Origin: Candidatus Lloydbacteria bacterium RIFCSPLOWO2_02_FULL_54_12
GTDB taxonomy: Bacteria; Patescibacteriota; Minisyncoccia; Phycocordibacterales; UBA6899
Assembly (NCBI GenBank): GCA_001819095.1
Contig: MHLS01000002.1
Location: 11,517-53,052, forward strand
DNA length: 41,536 nucleotides
Direction of reading: 5' to 3'
The notes beneath the pieces were generated by a model that saw only the letters and a list, made by a program, of their open reading frames with translations, ran no database searches and had not been told where the DNA came from. The translations under genes were made by a program, and so were the position numbers. Every line of letters begins with the position of its first letter. The stretch's first letter is position 1. Positions 27,099 to 40,268 of this stretch are shown piece by piece.

Positions 27099-27191
27099 CT
27101 CCCCACTACGGATATCGCCAAAGAGTAAAACGCGGGGTTGTTAGGCCTCGCGCTTTTTAGCTAAACATATTTAGTTGTTGTTATCGGGTAT

Positions 27192-27335: not shown

Positions 27336-27553
27336 TGTGGTTTTGTTTTAGGTCACTCTTTTGTAATGTTATTTTGTACACAGCGGTGATTTCTGCGTGG
27401 CAACCCTTTTCTCGTCGAATCTCATCGATCAAAGGCAGGTGAATCCCTCGGTGGAATTTTGTTGGCCCAAGGTCGGCTTGACCAAAAAAACCAGTAAAAT
27501 GAACACCTCAAGGCGATTGTATCATAGTATGTAAAGATTATCAACACTACATG

Positions 27554-27581
27554 TTGACATTTCATACACCTTGTGTATGCT
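27554..27581 (+). promoter_or_regulatory. Putative promoter with an embedded palindromic operator for the XRE-Panacea gene
   Basis: TTGACA (27554-27559), 16-nt spacer, TATGCT (27576-27581). The inverted repeat catacac-ctt-gtgtatg (27563-27579) lies between and over the boxes. Confidence 0.45.
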
Positions 27582-27624
27582 GGATGTATATCAATAACTA
27601 TTCACTAGTTAATTCCAGTAACGC

Positions 27625-28299: not shown

Positions 28300-28301
28300 C
28301 C

Positions 28302-28694
28302 ATGAAGTACGAGGTCACCTTCAGGCCTTTTACCGAAAGGCATTTCATAAAGACATTTGCCAAGAAATACCGAGGTGCTTGGGACCGCACACTGAAAGGT
28401 CTGGAGGTGGAGTTCGCTTTCGTCGAGTTGCTTTTTGGAAAGCAGATTGCCGAAACGATAAGTACTTCTGGCGATAATGATATAAGAATTTGTAAAACCG
28501 AGTTTAAAATTGCGGGCACTGAAATGTCCCGCCACGCTTCGGGGAATAGGTGCATTATCGCAATACAAAAAAGCGCCATGACTGTGCACGTGCTCTTGGT
28601 GTACCACAAAGGGGACATTGACGGACCCAGTGAAACGGCCGCATGGCAGTCTGTCATTAGGGACAATTATCCCGAGTATGCGAAGTTTCTATGA
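28302..28694 (+). CDS. Putative toxin partner of the Panacea antitoxin (family not recognised; possibly RelE-fold)
   Basis: 130-aa ORF starting 2 nt after the antitoxin stop. The assignment rests on small size and position. GNRCIIAIQKSAMTVHVLLVYHKGD loosely resembles the C-terminal strand pattern of RelE/ParE-type toxins. Confidence 0.45.
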   Translation: MKYEVTFRPFTERHFIKTFAKKYRGAWDRTLKGLEVEFAFVELLFGKQIAETISTSGDNDIRICKTEFKIAGTEMSRHASGNRCIIAIQKSAMTVHVLLVYHKGDIDGPSETAAWQSVIRDNYPEYAKFL

Positions 28695-28726
28695 TTTTTC
28701 TGCATCCCCGTGGCAAAGCCACTGGG

Positions 28727-28768
28727 TATTACACACCAATAAAAATCGTTGAGCAAAGAACAAAGTAA
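28727..28768 (+). repeat. Copy 3 (degenerate) of the RM-tail repeat
   Basis: The sequence tat tac aca cca ata aaa atc gtt gag caa aga aca aag taa reads YYTPIKIVEQRTK*, the same tail with the EE codons deleted. Confidence 0.6.
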
Positions 28769-28789
28769 CCATCCATCGAGGATGGTTAC
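28765..28789. terminator. Perfect 10-bp hairpin at the right edge of the island (weak terminator candidate)
   Basis: Stem gtaaccatcc / ggatggttac with loop atcga, followed only by TTT. Confidence 0.4.
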
Positions 28790-28838
28790 TTTGCGGGGAG
28801 GCGCATCTTTCTGGCGCCACCGTGTTTCGGGGTCTCGC

Positions 28839-29096
28839 TCACTCGTCAAGTATCTCAAGCGTGGCGATAACAGACGGGTTTTCGCTCGGAAGGTAGTGTA
28901 GGCGATCTCCGTACATCGTCTTCATTGCGCCAAAAAACTCGTCCGCCCAAGAGGGTGAAAGAGAGATGACACCGGAAAAGTCGATCTCGACATTCTCGGC
29001 GGCGGGGTCAATCGTCGGGCGGATGGCCGCAAACGCCTCCTTCCCTAGGGGGCGCGAGGTGAGCACCTGACCGAATTTTTTGAGTTCGATACGCAT
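28839..29096 (-). CDS. STAS-like DUF4325 domain protein
   Basis: MRIELKKFGQVLTSRPLGKEAF...VEIDFSGVISLSPSWADEFFG fits the DUF4325 pattern (..sR..G......v.ldF.gV..is.sfadEf.g). The ATG at 29096 lies 4 nt after the upstream gene. Confidence 0.65.
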   Translation of the reverse strand: MRIELKKFGQVLTSRPLGKEAFAAIRPTIDPAAENVEIDFSGVISLSPSWADEFFGAMKTMYGDRLHYLPSENPSVIATLEILDE

Positions 29097-29100
29097 GATG

Positions 29101-29826
29101 TTAATAGGTGATCTTGGCGATGGTTCCGCGGATGTTCCGATCTGCCAAGCGTATGGATAATTTTTTCGTCCCCTTCTTGATCTCTGCGACGGCAATTCCG
29201 GATTGTAGCGTCACACCGACACCGTATTTTTCAGCAACCTTTCGAACGAACTTCAGGCCGTTCCCTCTTTGTTCCGGTGCACGCCCCGATATACGCTCGT
29301 AGATCGCGATGGTGAGCGCCTCAATGTCGTCCTTGATGTCCGGTCGAACACGCAGAAGCGTCGCACGAATACCCACACCACGATCCGCGAGTACAACGAT
29401 GCGTTTCGGGAGATCGTACGCGAAGAAAATGCCGGTGACGTCGGGCCAATTCCCGATATTGTGATCGAAAGAGTTGTTGCCGATCTCTCCGGTCATGGAT
29501 GCGACGATTGGGGCGATTGCGCGAGTTTCCTCCTGTCGGTCAAGAAGGATCGCAAGAGTGTTCTGGCGCGCACGAAAGCGATCCGGCGTATCACAGTACA
29601 CCTCGGAAGGAAGTTCCGGAGGGGTGACACTTTCGGCCCATACGCGTGCGAGCGCGAAGAAGTCCTTGCTGAATCGCTCTATCGTATCGCGGTCGTAGTG
29701 CCGATGCCCGCCGGGGCTCCTTTCGGCCCGCAGTTTCCCGGACGCATCCCAGCGTCGAAGCGTATCGATCGAAACTCCAAGCAACTTGGCTACTTCGTTT
29801 ATGCTCATCATCCCATGTTTAGTCAT
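29101..29826 (-). CDS. MerR-type HTH fused to a GHKL (histidine-kinase-like/RsbW-like) ATPase domain
   Basis: MSINEVAKLLGVSIDTLRRWDASGKL (MerR HTH), N-box EIGNNSFDHN, G1 ADRGVGI and G2 QRGNGLKF. The start is set at the ATG at 29826 because the longer ORF (to 29877) would run through three direct repeats that look regulatory. Confidence 0.7.
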   Translation of the reverse strand: MTKHGMMSINEVAKLLGVSIDTLRRWDASGKLRAERSPGGHRHYDRDTIERFSKDFFALARVWAESVTPPELPSEVYCDTPDRFRARQNTLAILLDRQEETRAIAPIVASMTGEIGNNSFDHNIGNWPDVTGIFFAYDLPKRIVVLADRGVGIRATLLRVRPDIKDDIEALTIAIYERISGRAPEQRGNGLKFVRKVAEKYGVGVTLQSGIAVAEIKKGTKKLSIRLADRNIRGTIAKITY

Positions 29827-29846
29827 TGCACAGGTTACTATACCAA

Positions 29847-29896
29847 ATCTATGCAAATAGAGCAAATATCTATGCAATATTTACAGAATCTATGCG
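29847..29896 (-). promoter_or_regulatory. Three phased direct repeats ATCTATGC upstream of the MerR-GHKL gene
   Basis: The plus-strand sequence atctatgc occurs at 29847, 29868 and 29888 (spacings 21 and 20 nt). Confidence 0.5.
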
Positions 29897-30029
29897 TTTT
29901 GTGTCAAACGGACCAAGACCCCCACCACCAAGCCACTTTCGGGTGCTTGGTAGGGGGGGCATGTCCAAGGGGAGTACCCCCGAGTCGCCTATTTAGTGTA
30001 CTATCCACACTTTATCCACAGGCGGGGAC

Positions 30030-30066
30030 TTGCAGGTATTATATATAGTGTATATAATACACTAAG
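30030..30066 (+). promoter_or_regulatory. Promoter with palindromic operator (copy A) upstream of the nicotinamidase-like gene
   Basis: TTGCAG (30030-30035), 17-nt spacer, TATAAT (30053-30058). The palindrome TAGTGTAT-ata-ATACACTA (30046-30064) is centred on the -10 box. Confidence 0.55.
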
Positions 30067-30212
30067 TAAGAACGTTGACGCGCCTCGGGAAACGCAATCT
30101 CCCCATCGGTATAGGCGCCGTTTTGTTCTCTTCTCCGAACGGTCCAAAAACCGCTCGCGGGAGGCAACGTTCTTCCGTTCGTTGACAACCCAAACAGAGA
30201 AAGGTAAAGACA

Positions 30213-31040
30213 ATGGCCAAAGCACTGAAGGTGCACCTCCTCGTCATCGACCCGCAAGTGGACTTCATGGACGCTTCGGGATCGAGCTTGCCGGTTGCAG
30301 GCGCAACCCAAGACATGAAACGCCTTTCGGCCCTGATCGGCCGCGTCGGGCACAAGTTCGAGGACATCCACGTGACGCTCGATTCGCATCACACGATCGA
30401 CGTCGGACATCCGGGCATGTGGCGCGACCGAGACGGGCAAATGCCCAACCCGTTCACGCTCATCTTCGGGAAGGATATCGAGAACGGCATCTGGACGCCG
30501 CGCGATCCGTCGCTCCGCGCCCGCATGCTCACGTATGCGAACACGCTCGAAAAGAACGGGAATTACAACCTGATGGTCTGGCCCGAGCACTGCAAGATCG
30601 GCTCGCCGGGGCACAATGTGGAAGCGAACTTACTTGCGTCGCTCGAAGCATGGGAGCGCAAGGAATTCGCGACGGTGAATTACGTCACCAAGGGCACGAA
30701 TCCGTTCACCGAGCACTACGGCGCACTCATGGCCGAAGTGCCGGACCCGAACGATCCGTCGACCATGTTGAACGGTGACTTTCTTGCAATGCTTCAGGAT
30801 GCGGATATCGTCGGCGTGGCCGGCGAAGCGCTTTCGCATTGCGTGAAGTCGACCGTCGACCAGATCGCGCGGAATATCGGCGACGAGCACATCAAGAAGT
30901 TCCATATCCTGACCGACTGCTCGAATCCGGTCCCGCAAGTGGGCGGGGGCCCCGATTTCCCTGCGATCGCCAAGAAATGGCTCGGGGAGATGCAGTCCCA
31001 AGGGATGACGCTGGTGTCCTCGGCGGATTTTCTCAAGTAA
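30213..31040 (+). CDS. Divergent isochorismatase-family hydrolase, nicotinamidase (PncA)-like paralog
   Basis: LLVIDPQVDF (catalytic Asp region), LDSHHTIDVGHP (compare DWHPAGHLSF in pncA), WPEHCKIGSPGH (compare WPDHCIQDSKGA) and GEALSHCVKST (catalytic Cys region). It is 275 aa versus 215 aa for the canonical pncA at 34841. Confidence 0.7.
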   Translation: MAKALKVHLLVIDPQVDFMDASGSSLPVAGATQDMKRLSALIGRVGHKFEDIHVTLDSHHTIDVGHPGMWRDRDGQMPNPFTLIFGKDIENGIWTPRDPSLRARMLTYANTLEKNGNYNLMVWPEHCKIGSPGHNVEANLLASLEAWERKEFATVNYVTKGTNPFTEHYGALMAEVPDPNDPSTMLNGDFLAMLQDADIVGVAGEALSHCVKSTVDQIARNIGDEHIKKFHILTDCSNPVPQVGGGPDFPAIAKKWLGEMQSQGMTLVSSADFLK

Positions 31041-31067
31041 CGATCAAGACGAAAAAAGGAGAACATC

Positions 31068-31820
31068 ATGCCGCGTATCACCACTCCCGACGGGATGAAG
31101 GACCACAAGCTGGGCGGAAACTTTACATTCACCGCGAAGCGCATCGAGCACTTGGGTGCGACGGAGTACACGCTCGTCACCGTTGCGGTCGACGAATCCG
31201 GCTCGGTGTCCGGGTTCATGGACCAGCTCTTGGCGATGCTCAAGGAGGCGGTCGGCTCGTGCAAAGCGTCGCCGCGTTCGGACAATCTCCTCGTTCGCGT
31301 GCTCTACTTTTCGGACCGGTACCGCGGGGGCGTGACGGAGATCCACGGCTTCAAGCCGCTCGCCGAAATCGACCCCGCGCAATACCCGATGCCGAATCCG
31401 GGCGGATGGACGCCCCTTTGCGATGCGGTCTATTCCGCGGTCGGCGCAATGAACAAGTACGGCAAGGAGCTGTACGACCGCGATTACCTCGCGAACGGCA
31501 TCGCCTTCGTCATTACCGACGGCGGCGAGAATGCGTCGGTCGCGACGATGCCGATGGTGAAGGCGGAGCTGGCGAAGTCGGTGACTGGAGAGATTCTTGA
31601 GTCGATGGTCTCGATTCTGATCGGCGTTAATACCGCTTCCTGCAAGGATCATCTCGACCGTTTCAGCAAAGAGGCCGGTATGACGCAGTTCATCGATGCG
31701 GGCGACGCAAGCGCGAAAACGCTGGCGAAGATCGCGAAGTTCGTTTCGCGTTCCGTGTCGAGCCAGTCGCAGTCACTGGGAACAGGCGGGCCGAGCAAGC
31801 AAATCGCCGCCACGATCTAA
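31068..31820 (+). CDS. TerY-like vWA domain protein (TerY-P triad component)
   Basis: Strong AAGGAGA RBS. MIDAS VAVDESGSV plus FVITDGGEN. It is followed by PP2C and kinase genes. Confidence 0.8.
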   Translation: MPRITTPDGMKDHKLGGNFTFTAKRIEHLGATEYTLVTVAVDESGSVSGFMDQLLAMLKEAVGSCKASPRSDNLLVRVLYFSDRYRGGVTEIHGFKPLAEIDPAQYPMPNPGGWTPLCDAVYSAVGAMNKYGKELYDRDYLANGIAFVITDGGENASVATMPMVKAELAKSVTGEILESMVSILIGVNTASCKDHLDRFSKEAGMTQFIDAGDASAKTLAKIAKFVSRSVSSQSQSLGTGGPSKQIAATI

Positions 31821-31958
31821 AAGCCGTACCCCGTTAATTCATTCTTCTTTTTGCCGCATTTCCGAGGACTCACCTTGGCGTAAAGCCCCAAGGAGAGACC
31901 TCGGAGCATGGGGCGGTATGGAAATTGTTTATCGGGAATGGTAAGTCTATCAACAGCG

Positions 31959-31985
31959 GGGGCGGCCATGTGCCGCCCCTTTTTT
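31959..31985 (+). terminator. Strong intrinsic terminator between the vWA and PP2C genes
   Basis: Stem ggggcggc (31959-31966) / gccgcccc (31972-31979) followed by T6. The PP2C RBS (AAGGAGAG) starts immediately after the T-run. Confidence 0.75.
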
Positions 31986-32000
31986 CTCAAGGAGAGCACA

Positions 32001-32903
32001 ATGAAGTTTCGCGCAGACCACCACTTCGTGATCGGAGGCGACCACGTGACGTACGGGAAGCCGTGTCAGGACCACGCACTGTCGCAGGCGGACGACGGCA
32101 TGGCCGCTGTCGTCGTCTCCGACGGATGTTCGTCCGGCGGGGAGACCGACATGGGTGCACGTCTCACCACGTTCCTCCTCATGCAGACGATACGAGAGCT
32201 CGACAAAGGAAATCTGGGCCAAGAAAGTATTTTCGCCTCAAGGCACGCGGCGTTTTCCGCGGCGGCGACACTTCTCGGACTTCGGGAGACGGATACACTC
32301 GCCACGCTCCTCTATGCATATCTTGCACCGTCGGGCGGACACGTATATTTACAGGGCGACGGTGTCGTCGCACGAGAGCTCCGTGACGGCACGGTCATGC
32401 TTTCGCGCTTCGATTGGGCGAACAACATGCCGTTCTATCCGGCGTATGCGGATAGTGTGAACGGAAATTCCGAGCGTTTTGTCTTGGCCCACGGCGGAGA
32501 TCCTTCGGCGCGTCTCTTTACGGCGGAACACTGGGTGCGCTCTCCCGGTTCTTTGTGGACGAAAGCGTCCGAAGAAGCATCTTCGCTTCAGGACGGAATG
32601 AAGGGTGTCTCCATCGCCTTTGACGCCGCGGCAATGGAAGAAACATCGGCGGTCGCCGTCTTCACGGACGGTGTGACCTCGGTCTCTGGGGTTGACTGGA
32701 AAGATGCCGTGCTCCGGCTCCTTGATTTCAAGACGACGGAAGGAGCATTCATGAAACGCAGACTAAGCCGTGCGCTCAAGGAATTCGGCAAAGACGGCAA
32801 CGGACCGCGTGACGACCTCGCCTGCGCGGTCGTCCTTATCGCACATGACAAGAAAGGAGGGACCGATGAGTGCATTGAAACAACCGCGGAAACTCTCGCT
32901 TGA
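32001..32903 (+). CDS. PP2C-family protein phosphatase (TerY-P triad component)
   Basis: The ATG at 32001 follows AAGGAGAG. GKPCQDHAL...AAVVVSDGCSSGGETDMGAR matches the PP2C_2 pattern (QD ... vaDG.g). Confidence 0.75.
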   Translation: MKFRADHHFVIGGDHVTYGKPCQDHALSQADDGMAAVVVSDGCSSGGETDMGARLTTFLLMQTIRELDKGNLGQESIFASRHAAFSAAATLLGLRETDTLATLLYAYLAPSGGHVYLQGDGVVARELRDGTVMLSRFDWANNMPFYPAYADSVNGNSERFVLAHGGDPSARLFTAEHWVRSPGSLWTKASEEASSLQDGMKGVSIAFDAAAMEETSAVAVFTDGVTSVSGVDWKDAVLRLLDFKTTEGAFMKRRLSRALKEFGKDGNGPRDDLACAVVLIAHDKKGGTDECIETTAETLA

Positions 32904-34599
32904 AGGGAAGGGGACGGTCACGATCCATCCCTCGGATTACCTCACCAGCGGGGGCGAGGGCGAACTCTACCGCATCGGTGATACGGTAGTGAAACTCTAT
33001 ACCGACAAAGAAAAGATGCGCCGCGACGGAATGATCGCAAAGATCGCGCTCTTGCGCCCCCTGAAGCATCCGTCGGTTGTTGCACCTGCCGGCGTTGTCG
33101 CCTTGCCGACCGGGGAGCCCGTCGGTTTCCACATGCCGTATGTTTCGGGGGAACCGTTGTCGCGTCTTTTCACGAACGACTTTCGCCAGCGCGAGGGATT
33201 CACTCACGATATGACGAAGACTCTTGTCGAGCGGATGCGCGAGGCAGTCACCTTCGCTCACGACAAAGGAGCGGTGCTTGTCGACGCCAACGAGCTCAAT
33301 TGGCTTGCACGTGTGAAGGGCGCTGATGCGCCGATGCCTTACGTGATCGACGTTGACTCGTGGGCGATCGGCAAGTTCGGTGCCTCGGTCATCATGCCTT
33401 CGATCCGCGACTGGCACCGAGCCACCTTCGACCAAGGGAGCGACTGGTTCGCATGGGCGATTGTGACTTTCCAACTGTGGAGCGGCATCCATCCGTACAA
33501 AGGAAAGCTCGACGGGTACGGTCCCGGCGACCTTCTCGCGCGCATGAAAGCGAACAAGTCGGTTTTCACTTCCGGTGTCCGTCTCAATCGGGCGGTGCGG
33601 GATTTCCGCGTCATTCCGCCGCATCTTGCCCAGTGGTATGAAGCGACGTTCGAGTCCGGTTTGCGGGAACGACCGCCGTCCGCATTTGCGAGCGCTGTTG
33701 CTTTAGGTGGCGCGAAGACGGTGCTCTATGCGGTAACGACCGGAGCGGGGACGCTCGTGTTCGAGAAACTCTTCGACGAACCCTTGCGGCGCGTCGTCGG
33801 AGTTTGGCCCTCGGGGGTCCTCCGTTTGAAAGACGATTCGCTCGTCGAGCTTCGGACGAAGCGCACGATCAGTACCAACGCACCGCCAAGATGTGAGGTG
33901 GTGAAGGTGGAAGGCGGATGGCTTATCGCGCATGTTGAGAACGGTACACTCGCGGCGGAATACATCGCTCTAGCCACACTCCTTCCGACGAAGCTCACGC
34001 TCCCCATTGGCGCGCAAGGACTCTTTCGTTCGGGAGACCGACTTTTCGTCGTCACCCTACGGGGGATTACCGAGCTTACGCTCCGACTTTTCTCGAAGCC
34101 TGTGCTTGCGGTCGGTGGCACGTGGGCGGTGGCGACCAACTCGACTGCGTTTTTTGACGGCGTCGGTGTGAGCGACGTTCTGGGTGCGAAATTCCTCGTT
34201 CTTCCGTTCGGAGAAAGTGCATGCGCTCTTGTTCGTGCGCCGGAGCTTGATTCCGTGGCGGTCGTCAACGCGAAAGGCTTCGGGCGGTTCGTCGCGGCGA
34301 CTGTGCTCTCGAAAACGGGCGACTACAAGCTGCTCACGTTCACCTTCGACCGCGAGCACGGCGCTTACACATTCGCGGGACGGATCGTCGACTCGCCGGA
34401 ACTCAATATGGCGATACTTCCGAAAGGGGTCGCCGCGTCGATCGAGAACGACGGCGTGCTTTCGCTCACCGTCCCTACGGAAGGGCGCGTGGTCGAAGTT
34501 AGGGATAAGCACATCACGACCGACATGTTGCTCATGCGCATCGACGATCAGGTGCTTGCCGTTACAGGCGGCGCGCTCTCGAGCGTACGGATGCGGTAG
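32866..34599 (+). CDS. Ser/Thr protein kinase-like protein with a large beta-rich C-terminal domain (TerY-P triad component)
   Basis: The ATG at 32866 follows AAAGGAGGG. It has a glycine loop SGGEGELY, VVKLY (Lys) and HDKGAVLVDANELNWL (catalytic-loop-like). It overlaps the PP2C 3' end by 38 nt. Confidence 0.7.
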   Translation: MSALKQPRKLSLEGKGTVTIHPSDYLTSGGEGELYRIGDTVVKLYTDKEKMRRDGMIAKIALLRPLKHPSVVAPAGVVALPTGEPVGFHMPYVSGEPLSRLFTNDFRQREGFTHDMTKTLVERMREAVTFAHDKGAVLVDANELNWLARVKGADAPMPYVIDVDSWAIGKFGASVIMPSIRDWHRATFDQGSDWFAWAIVTFQLWSGIHPYKGKLDGYGPGDLLARMKANKSVFTSGVRLNRAVRDFRVIPPHLAQWYEATFESGLRERPPSAFASAVALGGAKTVLYAVTTGAGTLVFEKLFDEPLRRVVGVWPSGVLRLKDDSLVELRTKRTISTNAPPRCEVVKVEGGWLIAHVENGTLAAEYIALATLLPTKLTLPIGAQGLFRSGDRLFVVTLRGITELTLRLFSKPVLAVGGTWAVATNSTAFFDGVGVSDVLGAKFLVLPFGESACALVRAPELDSVAVVNAKGFGRFVAATVLSKTGDYKLLTFTFDREHGAYTFAGRIVDSPELNMAILPKGVAASIENDGVLSLTVPTEGRVVEVRDKHITTDMLLMRIDDQVLAVTGGALSSVRMR

Positions 34600-34610
34600 T
34601 GGTATCTAAT

Positions 34611-34635
34611 GGGGCGAGGAAACTCGCCCCTTTTT
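34611..34635 (+). terminator. Intrinsic terminator after the kinase gene
   Basis: Stem ggggcgag / ctcgcccc with loop gaaa, followed by T5. Confidence 0.8.
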
Positions 34636-34674
34636 GTTTTAAGTTTGGTGAGTTGTAACGCGTATGTGGTAATT

Positions 34675-34730
34675 CAAAGTACGAGGTCGAACCTTGAGGA
34701 ATGATTCTTAAGGTTCGACCTCGTACTTTG
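34675..34730. repeat. REP-like inverted repeat, family 1 (long copy)
   Basis: The 21-bp perfect arms are caaagtacgaggtcgaacctt / aaggttcgacctcgtactttg. The loop gaggaatgattct is similar to the loops at 38570 and 41448. Confidence 0.85.
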
Positions 34731-34769
34731 AGCGTCGCTTGAGCATATTTCACCAAACTTTTTATGCCG

Positions 34770-34799
34770 TTGACAGTAGTATTCCCTCCTGTTACTGTC
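34770..34799 (+). promoter_or_regulatory. Putative pncA promoter with an embedded inverted repeat
   Basis: TTGACA (34770-34775), 17-nt spacer, TACTGT (34793-34798). The inverted repeat is gacagta (34772-34778) / tactgtc (34793-34799). Confidence 0.4.
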
Positions 34800-34840
34800 T
34801 TCTGCAGTTGTTCGAATGAAATGAAAAGGAAAACAGAGCG

Positions 34841-35488
34841 ATGGATACAATCGACCGTATCGGAATAAACGGGAGCGACGCGCTTCTCGTGATCGATCTC
34901 CAGAACGATTTCATGCCGGGCGGCGCACTTGCCGTCCCTTACGGCAACGAAGTGGTTCCCGTGGCGAATGCGCTCATGAGACACTTTGCGAACGTCATTC
35001 TGACAGAGGACTGGCATCCGGCAGGCCACCTTTCTTTCGCGTCGTCTCATGCCGGCAAGGGAGTGTTTGAAACGATCGCACTTCCCTACGGCGACCAAGT
35101 GCTTTGGCCCGACCACTGCATCCAAGACTCGAAAGGCGCAGAATTGCACGCCGGACTCGAGACGTGGCGCGCACAGCTTATCGTTCGGAAGGGGTACCGT
35201 CCGCACGTCGACAGCTACTCCGCGTTCACCGAGGCGGACGGCAAGCCGACGGGACTCACCGGCTATCTTCGCGAGCGCGGTATCAGGCGCGTGTTCATGT
35301 GCGGCCTTGCGACGGATTATTGCGTCCTCTGGTCCGCGACCTCCGCACGCAAGGAACGTTTCGGTGTCATCGTCGTCGGGGACGCCTGCCGTGCGATCGA
35401 CCTCAACGGTTCGCTTGCGTCAGCGCGGAGTGAAATGGAAAAAGTCGGAGTGGGCATGACCCACTCTGGGGCCATCCTCGCGCCGTAA
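34841..35488 (+). CDS. pncA: Nicotinamidase/pyrazinamidase
   Basis: ALLVIDLQNDFMPGGALAV, EDWHPAGHLSFAS, WPDHCIQDSKGAEL and GLATDYCVLWSA are all canonical PncA motifs. Confidence 0.9.
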   Translation: MDTIDRIGINGSDALLVIDLQNDFMPGGALAVPYGNEVVPVANALMRHFANVILTEDWHPAGHLSFASSHAGKGVFETIALPYGDQVLWPDHCIQDSKGAELHAGLETWRAQLIVRKGYRPHVDSYSAFTEADGKPTGLTGYLRERGIRRVFMCGLATDYCVLWSATSARKERFGVIVVGDACRAIDLNGSLASARSEMEKVGVGMTHSGAILAP

Positions 35489-35591
35489 CTATTTTCGTCA
35501 AAGCCCGCGTTCAGCGGGTTTTTCTTTGCGCTCGACAACGGCCGGACGCTGTGATTGACTAGTGCCAGTTGTCACTTAAGGAGAGTATGAG

Positions 35592-36035
35592 ATGTCTGAC
35601 CCCGTTCAGGATTCACCCCAGAAGGCGTTGATCCACGGCATGGTGGCCGGACTTGTTTTCGGACTGCTGTTCGCCTATTTTCAAGGTCCGAAGGTGATAG
35701 CGGAGGTGCCCGCCGTCACGGTCATCGTCGGCAACCTCGCATTTGCCGCCATCTTTGCGTTCGCCTATTTCTTCTTTTTTCGCACCTCGGTCGCGAATGT
35801 GAAGGGAGATCCGAAGGGGCGGACCAAGTTCGCGGAGATCTATTTTCTCTGGATCGGCATGATCGTCGCGATGGAGAGCGTCAGGTTTTTCTTTGGCGCA
35901 TCGCTCGTCGACACCGCATCAACGGTCCTCTCGGTGGTCGTCGGCCTGTCCGTTTCCTACCGCAAGCTCTGCCAGATCTACCGGGCGGGAGGGGAAGGGG
36001 GCGGGGGAAACACTCCACAACCACCGTCGTCCTAA
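35592..36035 (+). CDS. Hypothetical membrane protein (about 4 TM helices)
   Basis: AAGGAGAG RBS. Hydrophobic segments run throughout, with a Gly/Pro-rich C-terminus. No family recognised. Confidence 0.55.
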   Translation: MSDPVQDSPQKALIHGMVAGLVFGLLFAYFQGPKVIAEVPAVTVIVGNLAFAAIFAFAYFFFFRTSVANVKGDPKGRTKFAEIYFLWIGMIVAMESVRFFFGASLVDTASTVLSVVVGLSVSYRKLCQIYRAGGEGGGGNTPQPPSS

Positions 36036-36046
36036 GTACAGCATCG

Positions 36047-36070
36047 AACGGCCGCCTCGGCCGTTTTTTT
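36047..36070 (+). terminator. Intrinsic terminator
   Basis: Stem aacggcc / ggccgtt followed by T7. Confidence 0.75.
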
Positions 36071-36096
36071 GTCCGCCCACTTGGGTTGGGCTTGCA

Positions 36097-36127
36097 CTCA
36101 CTTAGTGTATATGATACACTAAGTGAG
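36097..36127 (+). promoter_or_regulatory. Perfect 14+3+14 palindromic operator (copy B) upstream of pnuC-nadR-nadD
   Basis: The palindrome ctcacttagtgtat-atg-atacactaagtgag has TATGAT at its centre and a possible -35 TTGGGC 18 nt upstream. Confidence 0.6.
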
Positions 36128-36144
36128 TAGGAGGAGAGTGTGAG

Positions 36145-36231
36145 ATGAGATTATCAGTTATTTCACTTTATCTATGTCAGAATACTTTTCTGTGGGGACG
36201 ACACTATTTACCGTCTGGGGTTACCCGATGA
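36145..36231 (+). CDS. Possible 28-aa upstream ORF coupled to pnuC
   Basis: AGGAGG (36129-36134) lies 10 nt before the ATG at 36145. The ORF (MRLSVISLYLCQNTFLWGRHYLPSGVTR) ends in an ATGA overlap with the in-frame pnuC Met19 codon at 36228. Confidence 0.3.
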   Translation: MRLSVISLYLCQNTFLWGRHYLPSGVTR

Positions 36232-36860
36232 GCCCCATCGAATTCATCGGGACGGTATTCAACATCCTCTGCGTGTGGCTCATCGCGCGCAACAATATCT
36301 GGAATTGGCCGGTCGGGCTCGTCGGTACACTCCTTTTCGGTATGCTCTTTTGGCAGGTCGCGCTTTACTCGGATTTCTTCGAGCAGATATACTTCTTTGT
36401 TACGGGGATCTGGGGGTGGTGGCTCTGGCTTCGTCCGAGAGACGAAGAAGATAAGGCGAAGGGCGGACGTCGCATCGTCACCATTTCGGCGCGTGCCCGC
36501 CTTATTTATGTTTTTGCCATCGCGCTCGGGACGGTCGCTTTGGGTGCTTTGACCTTTAGACTTCCGGAACTCTTTCCCGTCCTTTTTCCCGAGCCGACGT
36601 CGTTCCCGTATCTCGACGCGTTCACCACGGTCATGAGTTTCGCGGCGACCATCCTCATCATGCGCAAGGAACTTGAGTGCTGGGCGCTCTGGATCATCGT
36701 CGACATCATCGGTATCGGTCTCTACTGGGCGAAGGACGTGAAACTCGTTGCGATACTTTACGTGATCTTCCTTGTGCTTGCGACACGAGGTCTTATCAAC
36801 TGGTACAGACTATGGAAGACGAACGCTCCCTTACCGGCCATAAGTGTCACGGCACAATGA
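36174..36860 (+). CDS. pnuC: Nicotinamide riboside transporter PnuC
   Basis: FNILCVWLIARNNIWNWPVG and a multi-TM profile are typical of PnuC. The start is ambiguous: the ATG at 36174 has no RBS, and the ATG at 36228 is coupled to the upstream ORF. Confidence 0.85.
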   Translation: MSEYFSVGTTLFTVWGYPMSPIEFIGTVFNILCVWLIARNNIWNWPVGLVGTLLFGMLFWQVALYSDFFEQIYFFVTGIWGWWLWLRPRDEEDKAKGGRRIVTISARARLIYVFAIALGTVALGALTFRLPELFPVLFPEPTSFPYLDAFTTVMSFAATILIMRKELECWALWIIVDIIGIGLYWAKDVKLVAILYVIFLVLATRGLINWYRLWKTNAPLPAISVTAQ

Positions 36861-37870
36861 AGACCGGTCTTGTCATCGGCAAATTCCTCCCGCCCCATCG
36901 GGGGCACCTGTATCTCATCGACGTTGCGCGTGCGCATTGTGACCGGTTGATCGTTGTCGTGTGCGACAGGGCGGGAGATGTTGTAGAGGCCCGTTCGCGT
37001 GCGGGGTGGTTGCGGGAACTCTATCCCGACGTCGATGTGCGCGTGGTGCCGGATATCGGTTTCGATGATGATTCCAAGAAGTGGGCAGCTTATACGGTGG
37101 AGTTCTTGGGTTTTGCGCCGGACATCGTCTTCACTTCCGAAGACTACGGCGAACCGTACGCGAAGTTTCTCGGTGCGGAGCATTACCTTGTCGACCACGA
37201 GCGCAAGGGTGTCTTTATGTCCGGAACGACAGTCCGTGCCGACGTGTCGAAAGCATGGTCCTATCTCCCTCCTCAAGTGCGGGTGCATTTCGTGCGTCGC
37301 GTTGCCGTCGTCGGTGCCGAGTCAACGGGGACAACGACCTTGGCGAGGGCACTTGCCGAGCGTTACGAAACGACGTGGGTTCCGGAGTACGGCAGGGAGT
37401 ACTCGGAAGAGAAGATGCGCCGCGGCGTTCTCGAGTGGAAGAGCGACGAATTCATCCACATTGCCGTGGAGCAGCTGCGGCGGGAGAATGAGGCGGCACG
37501 GAATGCGAAGCATCTCCTCGTCTGTGACACCGACGCATTTGCCACCACGCTGTGGCACGAGCGTTACATGGGTCTTCCGTCTGAAACGGTCGCACGCATT
37601 GCGGATCAGGTAGTGCACGACCTCTATATATTGACGGGTGACGAGATACCCTTCGTTCAAGACGGTTTCCGCGACGGTGAGCACATCCGCCACGGGATGC
37701 AACGGAGATTTTTTGAGGAATTGAAGCGCACTGGACGTCCGTATCTCCACGTGGAAGGTTCTCCCGAGGAGCGCCTTGCGGCGGCCTCGCGCGCCGTCGA
37801 CAAACTTTTGACGCTTCCCCACGGTCGCCGCCTCACACAGGCACATATCGACGAGTCTCTTGCGCGCTGA
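36857..37870 (+). CDS. nadR: NadR-type bifunctional NMN adenylyltransferase / ribosylnicotinamide kinase, without the HTH domain
   Basis: ATGA overlap with the pnuC stop. GKFLPPHRGHLYLI (GxFxPxHxGH) and MSGTTVR are present. The P-loop VVGAESTGTTTLARALA has Thr where the Walker A Lys is expected. No N-terminal HTH is present. Confidence 0.8.
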   Translation: MKTGLVIGKFLPPHRGHLYLIDVARAHCDRLIVVVCDRAGDVVEARSRAGWLRELYPDVDVRVVPDIGFDDDSKKWAAYTVEFLGFAPDIVFTSEDYGEPYAKFLGAEHYLVDHERKGVFMSGTTVRADVSKAWSYLPPQVRVHFVRRVAVVGAESTGTTTLARALAERYETTWVPEYGREYSEEKMRRGVLEWKSDEFIHIAVEQLRRENEAARNAKHLLVCDTDAFATTLWHERYMGLPSETVARIADQVVHDLYILTGDEIPFVQDGFRDGEHIRHGMQRRFFEELKRTGRPYLHVEGSPEERLAAASRAVDKLLTLPHGRRLTQAHIDESLAR

Positions 37871-37905
37871 TCTCATTCTTGGTGTACAGTAATAAGCATC
37901 GGCGT

Positions 37906-38550
37906 ATGCAAAGAAAAAGACGCATCGCAATAGCGGGGTCCGCGGCGAATCCAATCTCGCTCGGTCATGAGGAGTTCGCGGAAGCGCTGACACATTCCGG
38001 ACTTTTTGCTCTGGTGCTCTGGTTCCCGTCGGGGACCCGCACCGACAAGCCCGATCTTGCTTCTCCGGAAGATCGCGTGCATATGACCGAGATTGTCTTC
38101 AACGAAGCGTGGCGAACAGCACAGCCGACGGCATTTCGCATCGATCTGCGCGAGGCGTTCCGTCCGTCGATCCCGACGATACAACTCCTGCGCGAGATAC
38201 AACAAGAGCACATCGACGCCGAGATCGTCTTTGCGACCGGTGTTGACGTCCTCGCGCCGCGCAAGGAATACGGCAATCGCTCCGATGTTGAGCGCTATTG
38301 GGTCGAGGGAGAGAAACTCCTTTGCGACTGGACGTTCGCGGTATTTCCGCGCGAAGGGTATCCCCGTCCGGAAATTTTACAAAAAGAGGGGAAGCTCCCC
38401 GCGCATTTTTTGCTTCTTCCGCGTTCGGAGTCGCCGGCCGCGGGCATCTCGAGCACCGAGGTGAGGCGAAGGGTGAAAGCGGGGGAGTCTTTTGACGACC
38501 TCGTCCGTCCCGAGGTAGCGAAATATATCCGAGAACACGGGTTATATTGA
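37906..38550 (+). CDS. nadD: Nicotinate/nicotinamide mononucleotide adenylyltransferase (NadD-like)
   Basis: IAIAGSAANPISLGHEE (variant of GxFxPxHxGH, with SxGH) and ISSTEVRRRV (ISSTxxR). ATG at 37906; the tracked ORF starts at a TTG at 37879. Confidence 0.75.
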   Translation: MQRKRRIAIAGSAANPISLGHEEFAEALTHSGLFALVLWFPSGTRTDKPDLASPEDRVHMTEIVFNEAWRTAQPTAFRIDLREAFRPSIPTIQLLREIQQEHIDAEIVFATGVDVLAPRKEYGNRSDVERYWVEGEKLLCDWTFAVFPREGYPRPEILQKEGKLPAHFLLLPRSESPAAGISSTEVRRRVKAGESFDDLVRPEVAKYIREHGLY

Positions 38551-38602
38551 ACGTACAAGGTCGGACCTTGGGGATTAATTCTTAAGGTCCGACCTTGTAC
38601 GT
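38551..38602. repeat. REP-like inverted repeat, family 1 (long copy)
   Basis: The 19-bp perfect arms acgtacaaggtcggacctt / aaggtccgaccttgtacgt start directly after the nadD stop codon. The loop is ggggattaattctt. Confidence 0.85.
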
Positions 38603-38677
38603 TGAGGGGCCTGCCTTGCCTGCCTCGTGAGTAGCTGGAGTTCTGCGCGAGGTGGGCGGCTTTGTCTCCGCACGGGG

Positions 38678-38713
38678 TTGACAGGATTTATATAGTGTAT
38701 ATACTACACTAAG
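38678..38713 (+). promoter_or_regulatory. Promoter with palindromic operator (copy C) upstream of pncB
   Basis: TTGACA (38678-38683), 16-nt spacer, TATACT (38700-38705). The operator is tatagtgtat-ata-ctacactaag (38691-38713). Confidence 0.6.
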
Positions 38714-38823
38714 AAGCATGAGGGAGTTTCCGAGTCAGAAATTGACATATCACGATGTCTGTGGTAGTTAACGTCTAGCCTTGTGCGTTGTTTTTGGTCT
38801 TTGAGTTCTTTGAGGAGAAGGTG

Positions 38824-40164
38824 ATGACCGCGTTCCTGAATACTCCCGTAAGTGAGGGTCCACCCAACCGCTCCGTGGTGGATGACGACATTTACAAGTT
38901 CATCATGTTGCAGTTCATTCTGCGCTTCTATCCGGACGTGCAGGTGAAGTTTTCGCTCATCAATCGCGACAAGAAGATCCCGCTTGGAGACGTTGTCTCC
39001 GAGCACGAACTTCGCGCCGCGTTTGACCATGCCCGTACATTGCGTTTTGGCCCGCGCGTCAAAGACACCAACATTGCGTACATGCGGGGCATGCGCATGC
39101 ATCAGCAGGTGATGTTTGACGAGCCATACTTCGAATTCCTCGAACACTTCGAGCTTCCGCCGTACGAACTTTCGCGTGTGGGAAACCAGTATGCGATGAG
39201 CTCCTCGGGGCCGTGGTCGAGGGCGACGTTCTGGGAAATTCGGATGATGCAGATCCCCGTGGAGTTGTATTACCGCGAACTGATGCGTCGCATGACACCC
39301 ATCGAGCGCGAGGTGCTTTATAGCCGGGCGACCGACCGTATCTACAAGGAGCTTTCGAAGCTCTCGAACTCGAAGTACAAACCCAAGGTGGTGAACTTCG
39401 GCACACGCCGTCGCCACAGCTTCCTCTGGGAAAAGTTCGTCACTGCGATGTGCAAGGAAGTGCTCGGCGACCAACTCATCGGCACGTCGAACATCTGGAT
39501 GGCACATCACTTCAATCTCGTTCCCATGGGTACGAACGCCCACGAACTTCCGATGGTGGCGACCGCGATCGCGAAGGGTGATGACGCCAAGCGGAGAGCG
39601 CAGTATCAGGTGCTCGAGCAGTGGCAGAAACTGTACGGAGTCTTTTTGCGCATCTGCCTCCCTGATACGTTCGGAACGAAGCAGTTCCTCGCGAACGCAC
39701 CGGAGTGGCTCGCCGACTGGCGTGGCTTCCGCGACGACTCGGGCGATACCTTCGAGAACATCGAGGGGTACATCGACTGGTATAAGGAGCGGGGGATACT
39801 CAAGCCGAAGGAGGCGGGTAAGATAGTTATTCCGAGCGACGGAGAAAACGCGGACCACGCCCTAAAAGTCTGTGAAGCGTTCGATGAACACATCAACCTT
39901 TCCTTCGGTATCGGTCCGAATCTCACCAATGCATTCTTCGGATGCCATCCGACCCCCGACAAGAAGGTGCCCGGCCTCGACGTCACCTGGGCCGAAGCGT
40001 TTCGCCCCTTCTCCATCGTTGCGAAGGTCGAAGAGGCGGACGGAAATCCTGTCGTTAAGCTCTCGAACAACATCACGAAAGCGACCGGCCCAAAAGATGC
40101 GGTTGCCGAGAGCGTGAGGATCTTCGGTGGGGAAGGCCGGATCAAGCAAAGAGTTGTTGTGTAG
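38824..40164 (+). CDS. pncB: Nicotinate phosphoribosyltransferase
   Basis: GAGGAG RBS before the ATG at 38824. DDDIYKFIMLQF, NFGTRRRHS and PMGTNAHELPM are PncB hallmarks. Confidence 0.85.
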   Translation: MTAFLNTPVSEGPPNRSVVDDDIYKFIMLQFILRFYPDVQVKFSLINRDKKIPLGDVVSEHELRAAFDHARTLRFGPRVKDTNIAYMRGMRMHQQVMFDEPYFEFLEHFELPPYELSRVGNQYAMSSSGPWSRATFWEIRMMQIPVELYYRELMRRMTPIEREVLYSRATDRIYKELSKLSNSKYKPKVVNFGTRRRHSFLWEKFVTAMCKEVLGDQLIGTSNIWMAHHFNLVPMGTNAHELPMVATAIAKGDDAKRRAQYQVLEQWQKLYGVFLRICLPDTFGTKQFLANAPEWLADWRGFRDDSGDTFENIEGYIDWYKERGILKPKEAGKIVIPSDGENADHALKVCEAFDEHINLSFGIGPNLTNAFFGCHPTPDKKVPGLDVTWAEAFRPFSIVAKVEEADGNPVVKLSNNITKATGPKDAVAESVRIFGGEGRIKQRVVV

Positions 40165-40212
40165 TTGTTTTTGGCGGAAGGGATGTCCTTCCTTCCGCCC
40201 ATTCATTCAGTC
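40165..40212. repeat. Hairpin repeat, family 2 (copy 1)
   Basis: The sequence ttgtttttGGCGGAAGGgatgtccttCCTTCCGCCcattcattcagtc lies directly after the pncB stop. It has the same architecture as the copy at 41359. Confidence 0.8.
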
Positions 40213-40268
40213 TCGCACCGTGGTGGTGAGTGACTGAACAAATGGGTTCTTTTAAAAGGGAATAGCAA

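What the first reader, a model, noticed from the sequence alone, without database searches (positions are those of the whole stretch)
30030..38713. Shared palindromic operator centred on the -10 box of three NAD-related promoters, with no cognate regulator in the window
The motif TAGTGTAT-N3-ATACACTA occurs three times.
- 30046-30064, upstream of the nicotinamidase-like/vWA unit.
- 36097-36127, as a perfect 14+3+14 palindrome upstream of pnuC-nadR-nadD.
- 38691-38713, upstream of pncB and the ADP-ribosylglycohydrolase gene.

In each case the palindrome centre coincides with a plausible -10 hexamer (TATAAT, TATGAT, TATACT), and a -35-like box lies 16-18 nt upstream. This is the geometry of a repressor that occludes RNA polymerase.

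The NadR homolog here lacks the HTH domain. I see no NiaR- or NrtR-like gene, and the motif does not match the enterobacterial NadR box (TGTTTA-N6-TAAACA) as I remember it. The canonical pncA promoter (34770-34799) carries a different inverted repeat.

This points to a lineage-specific NAD-salvage regulon with an unidentified regulator.
Basis: partly seen in the sequence, partly recalled or inferred. Interest (0 to 1): 0.68.

Follow-up and report, generated by a model that had tools for sequence, protein, structure and literature searches.

The report
NrtR operators whose regulator gene was displaced
The repeated palindrome in front of three NAD-salvage operons is the binding site of NrtR, a repressor family described in 2008, and its gene is missing here because a 9.5-kb foreign DNA island sits exactly where relatives carry it.

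Summary
TAGTGTA-N5-TACACTA occurs three times without mismatch (30046, 36103, 38693) and once with two mismatches (29994). These are the only matches in the 53-kb contig, and all lie in NAD-cluster intergenic regions.

The sites are promoter-overlapping operators of an NAD regulon. They are not lineage-specific, and the regulator is not unknown.
- The motif fits the published NrtR signature: a 21-bp palindrome with core GT-N7-AC.
- In two database scans (239 loci, many phyla), 43 loci held an nrtR gene (Nudix + NrtR winged helix). In 22 of these its 5' end lay within 300 bp of the motif.
- The other recurrent neighbours were pncB, nadA, pncA, pnuC-nadR and nadD.

The source is a Candidatus Lloydbacteria (CPR) genome assembled from a metagenome (MAG). 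At least eight relatives have the order trmB-like, nrtR, boxes, NAD genes. Here the nrtR segment is replaced by a low-GC defence-type island (about 20485-29989).

I found no NrtR from this organism, so the boxes may be orphaned. A copy elsewhere is not excluded.

One box-controlled operon encodes a nicotinamidase-like protein, a vWA protein, a PP2C phosphatase and a Ser/Thr kinase. This module is NrtR-linked in several lineages and is the most novel element.

Verdict: a new member of a known kind, of modest interest.

The parts
29994..30012 (.). Auxiliary (weak) NrtR-type box, TAGTGTACTATCCACACTT, 52 bp upstream of box 1.
   Evidence: 2 mismatches to the core. A similar weak site at the same relative position occurs in relatives L265 (8780), L289 (1127) and L269 (4202), and upstream of pncA in L224 (9151) (alignment A3).
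30046..30064 (.). NrtR-type box 1, TAGTGTATATAATACACTA. It overlaps the -10 TATAAT (30053-30058); the -35 is TTGCAG (30030-30035).
   Evidence: It aligns with the boxes of L265, L251 and L257 in A3.
30213..34599 (+). Operon 1, four genes:
- nicotinamidase-like hydrolase (30213-31040)
- vWA protein (31068-31820)
- PP2C phosphatase (31968-32903)
- Ser/Thr kinase-like protein, 577 aa (32866-34599)
   Evidence: - Searches give the gene calls.
- (A6): the PncA catalytic residues D13/K160/C210 and metal ligands D57/H59 are conserved.
- 5 of the 10 A6 sequences match the Isochorismatase family (one of the ten is the window's canonical PncA).
- a homologue matches VWA at 6e-6.
- the kinase-domain profile hits PDB kinases.
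- The same four genes follow nrtR in L251, L265 and L257. The first two are also seen after nrtR on the shorter contigs L271 and L289.
34841..35488 (+). Canonical pncA (nicotinamidase). It has its own promoter region and no NrtR box in this genome.
   Evidence: NF008623, 183 bits; no box. The relative L251 does have a perfect box upstream of its pncA.
36097..36127 (.). NrtR-type box 2. The core is 36103-36121, TAGTGTATATGATACACTA, which forms the 21-bp palindrome TTAGTGTATATGATACACTAA and extends to a perfect 14+3+14 palindrome.
   Evidence: An intrinsic terminator at 36046-36066 just upstream shows that a new transcription unit starts here.
36174..38550 (+). Operon 2:
- pnuC (36174-36860)
- nadR-like NMN adenylyltransferase / ribosylnicotinamide kinase without HTH (about 36857-37870)
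- nadD (about 37906-38550)
38693..38711 (.). NrtR-type box 3, TAGTGTATATACTACACTA. It overlaps the -10 TATACT (38700-38705); the -35 is TTGACA (38678-38683).
   Evidence: In the alignment of five relatives (A5), the first five bases of the -35 (TTGAC), its spacing and 18 of the box's 19 positions are invariant, while the flanks diverge.
38788..41357 (+). Operon 3: pncB (38788 or 38824 to 40164) and an ADP-ribosylglycohydrolase (40269-41357).
19820..20491 (+). trmB-like winged-helix gene. In relatives it is the immediate upstream neighbour of nrtR.
   Evidence: -: 40% identity to the TrmB-family protein of L251.
- 84% identity to those of L224 and L193.
- Pfam TrmB in the homologues.
- The order trmB-like then nrtR is seen in L224, L251, L265, L269, L284-286, L293 and L294.
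20485..29989 (.). Low-GC island (GC 0.39-0.51 against about 0.57 in the flanks) occupying the slot where relatives carry nrtR. It encodes:
- a DUF3800 protein
- a type IIG restriction-modification enzyme
- a GIY-YIG protein
- a proteasome-like protein
- an NYN protein
- an HTH-SocA/Panacea protein
- a DUF4325 protein
- a MerR-HTH + GHKL ATPase
   Evidence: - Composition. Annotation.
- Junctions. L289 matches the window at 20149-20484 and again from 29990, with only nrtR in between. Alignments A3 and A4 agree.
- No nrtR remnant is present.
- The island is present in all 24 contigs that carry the identical 275-aa protein.

Best explanation
The four palindromes are operators of the NrtR family. 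NrtR is a Nudix-related transcriptional regulator that represses NAD genes and is released from DNA by ADP-ribose.

Proposed mechanism:
- An NrtR dimer would bind the 21-bp palindrome (T)TAGTGTA-N5-TACACTA(A). This overlaps the -10 hexamer of the promoters of three operons: nicotinamidase-like/vWA/PP2C/kinase, pnuC-nadR-nadD, and pncB-ADP-ribosylglycohydrolase.
- Binding would block RNA polymerase.
- ADP-ribose, the breakdown product of NAD, would bind the Nudix domain and release the repressor. NAD consumption would therefore switch on salvage.

In this Candidatus Lloydbacteria genome, the nrtR gene is absent from its usual place. Relatives carry it between the trmB-like gene and box 1. Here a 9.5-kb low-GC defence-type island replaces it.

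What is shown:
- motif identity and its statistics
- its association with nrtR and NAD genes across phyla
- synteny with relatives
- the island junctions

What is inferred:
- binding and the ADP-ribose response, taken from work on other NrtR proteins
- the present status of the boxes

I could find no NrtR from this organism. My best guess (about 55%) is that the boxes are now orphaned and the three operons run constitutively. About 40% goes to the alternative that an nrtR copy elsewhere in the genome still represses them, and the small remainder to other regulators or a generic element.
For: 1. The motif is real and confined. There are 3 perfect sites and 1 weak site. These are the only matches in the 53-kb contig, and none of 100 shuffles reached that number.

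2. It fits the published NrtR signature, a 21-bp palindrome with core GT-N7-AC (PMC2330246). All sites have GT-N7-AC. Box 2 is a perfect 21-mer palindrome.

3. Unbiased scans place it next to nrtR.
- 120 genome loci matched TAGTGTAT-N4-TACACTA. About 100 of these sites are intergenic.
- The largest family of flanking genes was Nudix + NrtR_WHD, with 10 members. NAPRTase (6), NadA (3) and PnuC (2) were also recurrent.
- Across 239 loci (1.58 Mb), 43 contain nrtR, and 22 have its 5' end within 300 bp of the motif.
- In the NrtR/NAD-linked sites the flanks are T (69%) and A (77%), giving TTAGTGTA-N5-TACACTAA.

4. Locus L043 reproduces the '#pncB-nrtR-pncA' arrangement published for Blastopirellula.

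5. Close relatives show nrtR next to the boxes.
- L251, L265, L269/L271, L289 and L257 have nrtR, then the boxes (or a degenerate 2-mismatch box in L257), then the same nicotinamidase-like/vWA genes; PP2C and kinase follow wherever the contig reaches that far.
- L224 and L284 have trmB, nrtR, pncA ... nadD, box, pncB.

6. Phylogenetic footprint: the first five bases of the -35 (TTGAC), the 16-nt spacing and box 3 (all but one position) are invariant in 5 relatives whose flanks have diverged.

7. The literature states that NrtR sites overlap promoters, that the proteins act as repressors, and that ADP-ribose suppresses DNA binding.

8. The island replacement is documented.
Against: - No nrtR gene is in the window or the rest of the 53-kb contig.
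- I could not show one anywhere in this organism. The best 120 NrtR homologues of two close-relative queries contain none named Lloydbacteria. None has this organism's footprint of sources and contig count except P0295, which is from a Niyogibacteria MAG.
- Binding therefore cannot be assumed to occur in this cell.
Its full regulon is unknown.
- About 60% of the motif hits elsewhere have no nrtR or NAD gene within the fetched block. The 14-base core alone is therefore not fully specific.
- The box centres are A/T-rich by nature, so some resemblance to a -10 hexamer is expected even without function.
- The -35 of site 2 is ambiguous.
Confidence: 0.88

Rival explanations
1. The boxes are working NrtR operators. 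The organism still has an nrtR gene on another contig, and that copy represses the three operons in trans.
For: - The three cores are perfect, and the auxiliary site is as good as in relatives that have nrtR. This fits continued selection.
- L193, a second relative without nrtR in the fetched 13.9-kb stretch, also keeps a perfect pncB box.
- MAGs are incomplete, and only 53 kb of this genome could be inspected.
Against: - No candidate was found among the best 120 homologues of two closely related NrtR queries. Every one I looked up belongs to another organism and sits in the usual trmB-nrtR context.
- The syntenic slot is empty, with no pseudogene remnant.
Confidence: 0.4
2. The motif belongs to a lineage-specific NAD regulon controlled by a new, unidentified transcription factor.
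For: - No NrtR, NiaR or HTH-bearing NadR is in the window.
- No nrtR was found for this organism.
Against: - The same motif sits next to nrtR genes across many phyla.
- It lies directly downstream of nrtR in the closest relatives.
- It matches the published NrtR core.
- The motif is not lineage-specific.
Confidence: 0.03
3. A neighbouring regulator has taken over the boxes by non-orthologous replacement. Candidates are the conserved trmB-like protein (19820-20491) and the island-encoded MerR-HTH/GHKL ATPase with its DUF4325 partner (28839-29877).
For: - Both genes are adjacent to the cluster.
- The trmB-like gene is nrtR's constant neighbour in relatives.
- L193 has an HTH-GHKL-DUF4325 fusion in the slot between the trmB-like gene and pncA. 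No nrtR is seen in its fetched 13.9 kb.
Against: - trmB-like genes occur in only 3 of 239 motif loci. Homologues of the MerR-GHKL protein occur in none.
- The L193 protein and the window protein share only 23% identity.
- The boxes predate the island, because they are conserved in relatives that lack it.
- MerR-type activation needs a 19-20-nt spacer, whereas these promoters have 16-18 nt. That requirement is from my own knowledge, not tested here.
Confidence: 0.05
4. The motif is a generic promoter or repeat element with no dedicated regulator, for example a strong-promoter cassette or a REP/MITE-like palindrome.
For: - Its centre doubles as a -10 hexamer.
- The genome does contain another repeated hairpin element.
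Against: - It occurs only 4 times in 53 kb, always in front of NAD-linked operons.
- It is conserved in position in relatives whose flanks have diverged.
- It is linked to nrtR and NAD genes across phyla.
Confidence: 0.02

Closest known systems
NrtR (Nudix-related transcriptional regulator) and its operator. Sources: Rodionov et al. 2008, PMC2330246; Shewanella oneidensis NrtR structures 3GZ5 and 3GZ6.
   Same: - A 21-bp palindrome with core GT-N7-AC.
- Position overlapping the promoters of pncB, pnuC-nadR and nadD-type genes.
- nrtR lies directly beside the boxes in relatives.
- NrtR of a relative (P0139) matches 3GZ5 at 1e-31 and AraR 5BS6 at 4e-41.
- The ADP-ribose logic fits the ADP-ribosylglycohydrolase gene in the regulon.
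   Different: - The regulator gene is absent from this locus and possibly from this genome.
- The host is a CPR bacterium (Lloydbacteria). I found no paper linking NrtR with CPR or DPANN organisms.
- The regulon includes a nicotinamidase-like/vWA/PP2C/kinase operon that is not in the gene lists of the 2008 paper as far as I read them.
Enterobacterial NadR repressor and its box, TGTTTA-N6-TAAACA.
   Same: A palindromic operator of NAD salvage and biosynthesis genes. A NadR-family enzyme is encoded in the cluster.
   Different: - The NadR homologue here lacks the HTH domain; its alignment starts at model position 62.
- There is no NadR box near the NAD genes.
NiaR (YrxA), the niacin-responsive repressor.
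   Same: A repressor of NAD genes with TGT/ACA-containing palindromes (PMC2330245).
   Different: - The NiaR cores are TGT-N4/5-ACA or ACA-N5-TGT, and the family is described from Firmicutes, Fusobacteria and Thermotogales.
- No NiaR-like gene was seen among the annotated ORFs.
- The motif's genomic partner elsewhere is nrtR, not niaR.
NadQ, the NAD regulator of Alphaproteobacteria (PDB 7Q91).
   Same: It shares the C-terminal winged-helix region with NrtR (1e-10, query residues 127-215) and regulates NAD genes.
   Different: It has a different architecture and operator. No NadQ-like gene was seen beside the motif in the scans.
TerY-P triad (vWA protein + PP2C phosphatase + Ser/Thr kinase). 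I recall it as a described gene triad and as an anti-phage system; this is from memory.
   Same: Operon 1 has the same three domain types in the same order, after a nicotinamidase-like gene.
   Different: - No PADLOC model matched any of the four proteins at E <= 0.001.
- The linkage to NrtR and to a PncA-like enzyme is not part of the triad as I know it.

Membership tests
NrtR operator (NrtR box) | Palindromic symmetry of about 21 bp. | tested here: met
   Box 2 is the perfect 21-mer TTAGTGTATATGATACACTAA. Boxes 1 and 3 are 19-bp palindromes apart from the central bases. Sites linked to NrtR or NAD genes elsewhere have T/A flanks in 69% and 77% of cases.
NrtR operator (NrtR box) | Conserved core GT-N7-AC (PMC2330246). 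| tested here: met
   All four sites read ..GT-ATATAAT-AC.. or an equivalent.
NrtR operator (NrtR box) | Location in the regulatory regions of NAD metabolism genes, overlapping or downstream of promoter elements. | tested here: met
   The sites lie upstream of pnuC-nadR-nadD, of pncB-ARH and of the nicotinamidase-like operon, and overlap -10-like hexamers.
NrtR operator (NrtR box) | Co-occurrence with an nrtR gene (Nudix + NrtR winged helix) in the same genome, often adjacent. | tested here: inconclusive
   - Not met in the window or the 53-kb contig.
- Met in at least 8 relatives and in 43 of 239 motif loci.
- The rest of the source genome could not be read.
NrtR operator (NrtR box) | Specific binding by NrtR protein, relieved by ADP-ribose. 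| not testable with these tools
   This needs EMSA or footprinting. It is known for the Synechocystis and Shewanella NrtR proteins (PMC2330246 abstract).
NadR box (Enterobacteria) | TGTTTA-N6-TAAACA operator together with a NadR protein that carries an N-terminal HTH. | tested here: not met
   No box lies near the NAD genes. The NadR homologue lacks the HTH.
TerY-P triad (for operon 1) | Adjacent vWA, PP2C phosphatase and Ser/Thr kinase genes. | tested here: met
   PP2C_2 at 1.7e-13. The kinase profile hits PDB kinases at 1e-5. A vWA homologue matches VWA at 6e-6, and the window protein has a DxSxS motif.
TerY-P triad (for operon 1) | Sequence membership in the curated anti-phage TerY-P models. 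| tested here: not met
   No PADLOC hit for any of the four proteins at E <= 0.001.

The most novel reading that the evidence does not exclude
Two linked readings remain open.

1. In CPR bacteria and in some other phyla, the ADP-ribose sensor NrtR controls more than NAD salvage enzymes. It also controls a conserved signalling module: a nicotinamidase-like hydrolase, a vWA protein, a PP2C phosphatase and a Ser/Thr kinase, resembling a TerY-P triad. This would tie NAD breakdown to a phospho-signalling or defence-type response.

2. In this Lloydbacteria population, a defence island has deleted nrtR. The whole regulon would then be permanently derepressed, as a natural regulator knockout fixed in the aquifer population.
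Probability: 0.4. Interest if true: 0.55.

Novelty: new member of a known kind. Interest (0 to 1): 0.35.

Why it matters
- The case against an unknown NAD regulator is strong. The palindrome is an NrtR box, a system described in 2008.
- It extends NrtR-type control of NAD salvage to CPR bacteria. These organisms are thought to depend on scavenged cofactors. I found no literature on NrtR in them.
- It shows how a regulon can lose its regulator gene. A foreign island replaced nrtR cleanly while every operator stayed intact. This gives a testable natural experiment: nrtR-plus and nrtR-minus relatives live in the same aquifer.
- It flags a four-gene nicotinamidase-like/vWA/PP2C/kinase module as a recurrent NrtR target. 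That is a lead on the function of TerY-P-like triads.

Tried and rejected
- Phage origin: megablast of 29-41 kb against the phage collection found nothing. The window is a bacterial chromosome segment.
- Riboswitches or other RNA elements: a permissive Rfam search of 28.5-41.5 kb gave only chance-level miRNA-like hits on hairpins.
- Leader structure: the 150-nt leader after box 1 has no conserved structure across 6 relatives.
- NadR box: absent.
- Literature search for the motif string together with NrtR: nothing useful. The NrtR paper has no supplement held as text, so its logos could not be compared base by base.
- Finding its nrtR by homology: three searches and twelve contig look-ups returned only other organisms.
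- nrtR pseudogene remnant in the window: none.
- Strain polymorphism (an allele without the island): none among the 24 contigs. An apparent variant, L283, is 100% identical to the window and differs only in gene calling.
- PADLOC membership of operon 1: none.
- A PDB sequence-profile search with the vWA protein alignment: no hit.
- Homology between the HTH-GHKL-DUF4325 protein of L193 and the island's MerR-GHKL protein: only 23% identity, so I treat their similar position as a coincidence of architecture.

Full report
**1. Observation**

- 30046-30064: TAGTGTATATAATACACTA.
- 36103-36121: TAGTGTATATGATACACTA, inside a perfect 14+3+14 palindrome at 36097-36127.
- 38693-38711: TAGTGTATATACTACACTA.

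None of 100 dinucleotide-preserving shuffles gave three matches.

Relaxing the pattern to the 7+5+7 core with up to 3 mismatches adds one more site. It lies at 29994-30012 (TAGTGTACTATCCACACTT), 52 bp upstream of site 1. L010, which adds about 9 kb of the same contig upstream of the window, has none.

Each strong site overlaps a -10-like hexamer, with a TTG-type -35 box 16-18 nt upstream (sequence reading; for site 3). Site 2 allows two alternative registers.

An intrinsic terminator precedes site 2, and a hairpin precedes site 3. The three sites therefore head three separate transcription units.

**2. Surroundings**

The window is a chromosome segment, not a phage. It belongs to contig MHLO01000005.1 of assembly GCA_001819035.1. 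A gene on the same contig is named Candidatus Lloydbacteria by NCBI and UniRef, so the host is a CPR/Parcubacteria bacterium from the Rifle aquifer.

The gene content behind the sites is as follows:
- Site 1: a 275-aa protein, a 250-aa protein, a PP2C phosphatase and a 577-aa kinase-like protein.
- Then pncA and a small membrane protein, with no box.
- Site 2: pnuC, an nadR-like gene without HTH, and nadD.
- Site 3: pncB and an ADP-ribosylglycohydrolase.

The four proteins of the site-1 operon were characterised further:
- The 275-aa protein keeps the catalytic Asp/Lys/Cys and the metal ligands of PncA (alignment A6). Five of the ten A6 sequences, one of them the window's canonical PncA, reach the Isochorismatase family.
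- The 250-aa protein has a DxSxS motif, and a homologue matches VWA.
- The 577-aa protein has an N-terminal Ser/Thr kinase domain.

No Rfam family explains the leaders.

**3. What the motif is**

The NrtR paper describes operators as 21-bp palindromes with a conserved core GT-N7-AC. It places them over or just downstream of promoters, with ADP-ribose as anti-repressor (PMC2330246). All sites here have that core, and site 2 is a perfect 21-mer.

I then tested the link without assuming it.
- About 100 of the sites are intergenic.
- Clustering the genes that start next to the motif gave, as the largest family, ten 210-250-aa proteins with a NUDIX domain and the NrtR winged-helix domain PF21906.
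- NAPRTase (6 members), NadA (3) and PnuC (2) were also recurrent.

A second scan, of metagenome contigs, gave 119 more loci. Over all 239 loci (1.58 Mb):
- 43 contain nrtR, and 22 of those have its 5' end within 300 bp of the motif.
- 48 contain NAD genes.

A gene present once or twice per genome would be expected less than once in that much DNA.

The hosts include Planctomycetota, Chloroflexota, Bacteroidota, Proteobacteria, several Patescibacteria, and MAGs labelled Woesearchaeota, Nanoarchaeota, Jordarchaeia and Methanosarcinales.

Locus L043 shows box, pncB, nrtR, pncA. This is the arrangement published for Blastopirellula.

The motif is therefore the NrtR box. It is neither lineage-specific nor bound by an unknown factor.

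**4. Why the regulator gene is missing**

NrtR homologues are abundant in Patescibacteria. Looking up their contigs revealed close relatives of this locus.
- L251: trmB-like, nrtR, 275 aa (76% identical to the window protein), vWA (72%), PP2C, 578 aa (54%), pncA, nadD, ARH, pncB.
- L265, L269/L271, L289 and L257 (Niyogibacteria) have the same nrtR-first order, although L271 and L289 end after the vWA gene.
- L224 and L284 have trmB-like, nrtR, pncA ... nadD, box, pncB.
- L293 and L294 show trmB-like directly followed by nrtR.

In L265, L269 and L289 the intergenic region between nrtR and the 275-aa gene holds a weak box and a strong box 49-52 bp apart, as in the window. In L251 the two boxes are 26 bp apart, and L257 has a single degenerate box.

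The junctions are well defined:
- The window's trmB-like gene (19820-20491) is 84% identical to those of L224 and L193.
- L289 matches the window at 20149-20484 and again from 29990 onward. In L289 only about 0.76 kb, consisting of nrtR, lies between these two points. Alignments A3 and A4 agree.
- In the window that interval is 9.5 kb of low-GC DNA.

The island carries a DUF3800 protein, a type IIG restriction-modification enzyme, and GIY-YIG, proteasome-like and NYN proteins. It also carries an HTH-SocA/Panacea protein, a DUF4325 protein and a MerR-HTH/GHKL ATPase.

No nrtR remnant is left. All 24 contigs that encode the identical 275-aa protein carry the island.

The slot looks like a hotspot for insertions. 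L269 has three extra genes there, and L193 has an HTH-GHKL-DUF4325 fusion between its trmB-like gene and pncA, with no nrtR in the fetched stretch.

**5. Is NrtR made elsewhere in this organism?**

I could not settle this. The best 120 homologues of two close-relative NrtR queries contain no Lloydbacteria entry.
- Only one cluster has the source organism's footprint (16 contigs; NCBI, JGI, Logan, ENA and UniRef). It belongs to a Niyogibacteria MAG.
- Every other candidate I looked up sits in the usual trmB-nrtR context of a different organism.

This points towards loss, but MAGs are incomplete and the lists are truncated. On the other side, the perfect state of three boxes argues for a recent loss or for a copy acting in trans.

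I put about 55% on orphaned boxes with constitutive expression, and about 40% on trans repression.

**6. Mechanism**

By analogy with characterised NrtR proteins:
- A dimer binds the 21-bp palindrome through its winged-helix domains.
- It occludes the -10 region and blocks transcription initiation.
- ADP-ribose bound to the Nudix-like domain releases it.

The comparative footprint supports the promoter overlap. In five relatives the first five bases of the -35 (TTGAC), the 16-nt spacing and TAGTGTATATA(C/A)TACACTAAG upstream of pncB are unchanged, while the flanking sequence has diverged.

The ADP-ribosylglycohydrolase in the regulon could feed the effector pool; this is inference. Binding, the effector and the transcription start sites are all untested here.

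**7. Comparison with known systems, and novelty**

The operator meets the sequence and position criteria of the NrtR family. The co-occurrence criterion is met in relatives but not shown for this genome. The sites are not NadR or NiaR boxes.

What is new is modest:
- NrtR control in CPR bacteria, for which no paper was found.
- A clean replacement of the regulator gene by an island.
- A nicotinamidase-like/vWA/PP2C/kinase operon as a recurrent NrtR target.

The last point rests on several observations. The module lies next to nrtR in L251, L265, L257, L269/L271 and L289. Its nicotinamidase-like gene sits beside an NrtR box or nrtR in the more distant loci L060, L107, L166, L188 and L225. The module resembles the TerY-P triad but matches no PADLOC model.

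**8. Verdict**

The feature is a new member of a known kind. I score interest at 0.35, and the score rests mainly on the displaced regulator and the signalling module.

Noticed in passing
window 34674-34731, 38560-38594, 41437-41472: A second repeated element: the hairpin GGTCGRACCTTGAGGA...TTAAGGTYCGACC, with arms of up to 25 nt. It sits at the 3' end of each of the three box-controlled operons. Five half-site matches were found against 0.06 expected. It is probably a terminator-like or REP-like element. It also accounts for the weak miRNA-like Rfam hits.
   Followed up: partly
window 38742-38770: A second promoter-like element, TTGACA-17-TAGTTA, lies about 30 nt downstream of box 3. Its TTGACA is invariant in all five relatives aligned. 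It could be an NrtR-independent promoter for pncB, or another binding site.
   Followed up: no
window 20485-29989: A low-GC island with defence-type content: a DUF3800/PDC-M04A protein, a type IIG restriction-modification enzyme (Eco57I-like, 1013 aa), GIY-YIG, proteasome-like and NYN/PDC-S05 proteins, and an HTH-SocA/Panacea antitoxin-like protein. Its last two genes encode a MerR-HTH (mad1-like) + GHKL ATPase and a DUF4325 STAS-like partner. No integrase was seen. A 9-bp direct repeat, CCCCACCAC, occurs near both ends, at 20521 and 29920. Two shared 9-mers were found where about 0.2 are expected.
   Followed up: partly
L193 3545-4627: A close relative (trmB-like protein 84% identical) has a single HTH + GHKL ATPase + DUF4325 fusion gene in the slot between its trmB-like gene and pncA. 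This is the same domain set as the two island genes next to box 1 in the window, but only 23% identical. Either it is a coincidence or this module type favours the slot.
   Followed up: partly
L026, L027, L050, L072, L097, L110, L118: NrtR boxes together with nrtR and NAD genes (pnuC-nadR, nadA, pncB) occur in MAG contigs labelled Woesearchaeota, Nanoarchaeota, Nanobdellati, Jordarchaeia and Methanosarcinales. The 2008 description covers bacteria only. Mis-binning was not ruled out.
   Followed up: no
window 36097-36127: Box 2 is palindromic for 5 bp beyond the 21-bp NrtR box on each side (CTCAC...GTGAG). No explanation was found. The probability of five extra complementary pairs by chance is about 0.001.
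   Followed up: no
window 30213-34599; L251, L265, L257, L271, L289, L107, L225, L060, L166, L188: The nicotinamidase-like protein keeps the PncA catalytic triad but has long insertions and scores below Pfam thresholds. It travels with vWA, PP2C and kinase genes and with NrtR boxes in several lineages. Its function is unknown.
   Followed up: partly
L012-L131 (for example L042, L055, L056, L074, L088, L111, L114; L095, L117, L128): Many motif hits in Bacteroidota lie next to unrelated conserved genes: a glucosaminidase paired with a 281-aa protein, or class II fructose-bisphosphate aldolase. No nrtR lies within the fetched block. These may be targets of NrtR-family paralogues, other factors, or chance.
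   Followed up: no
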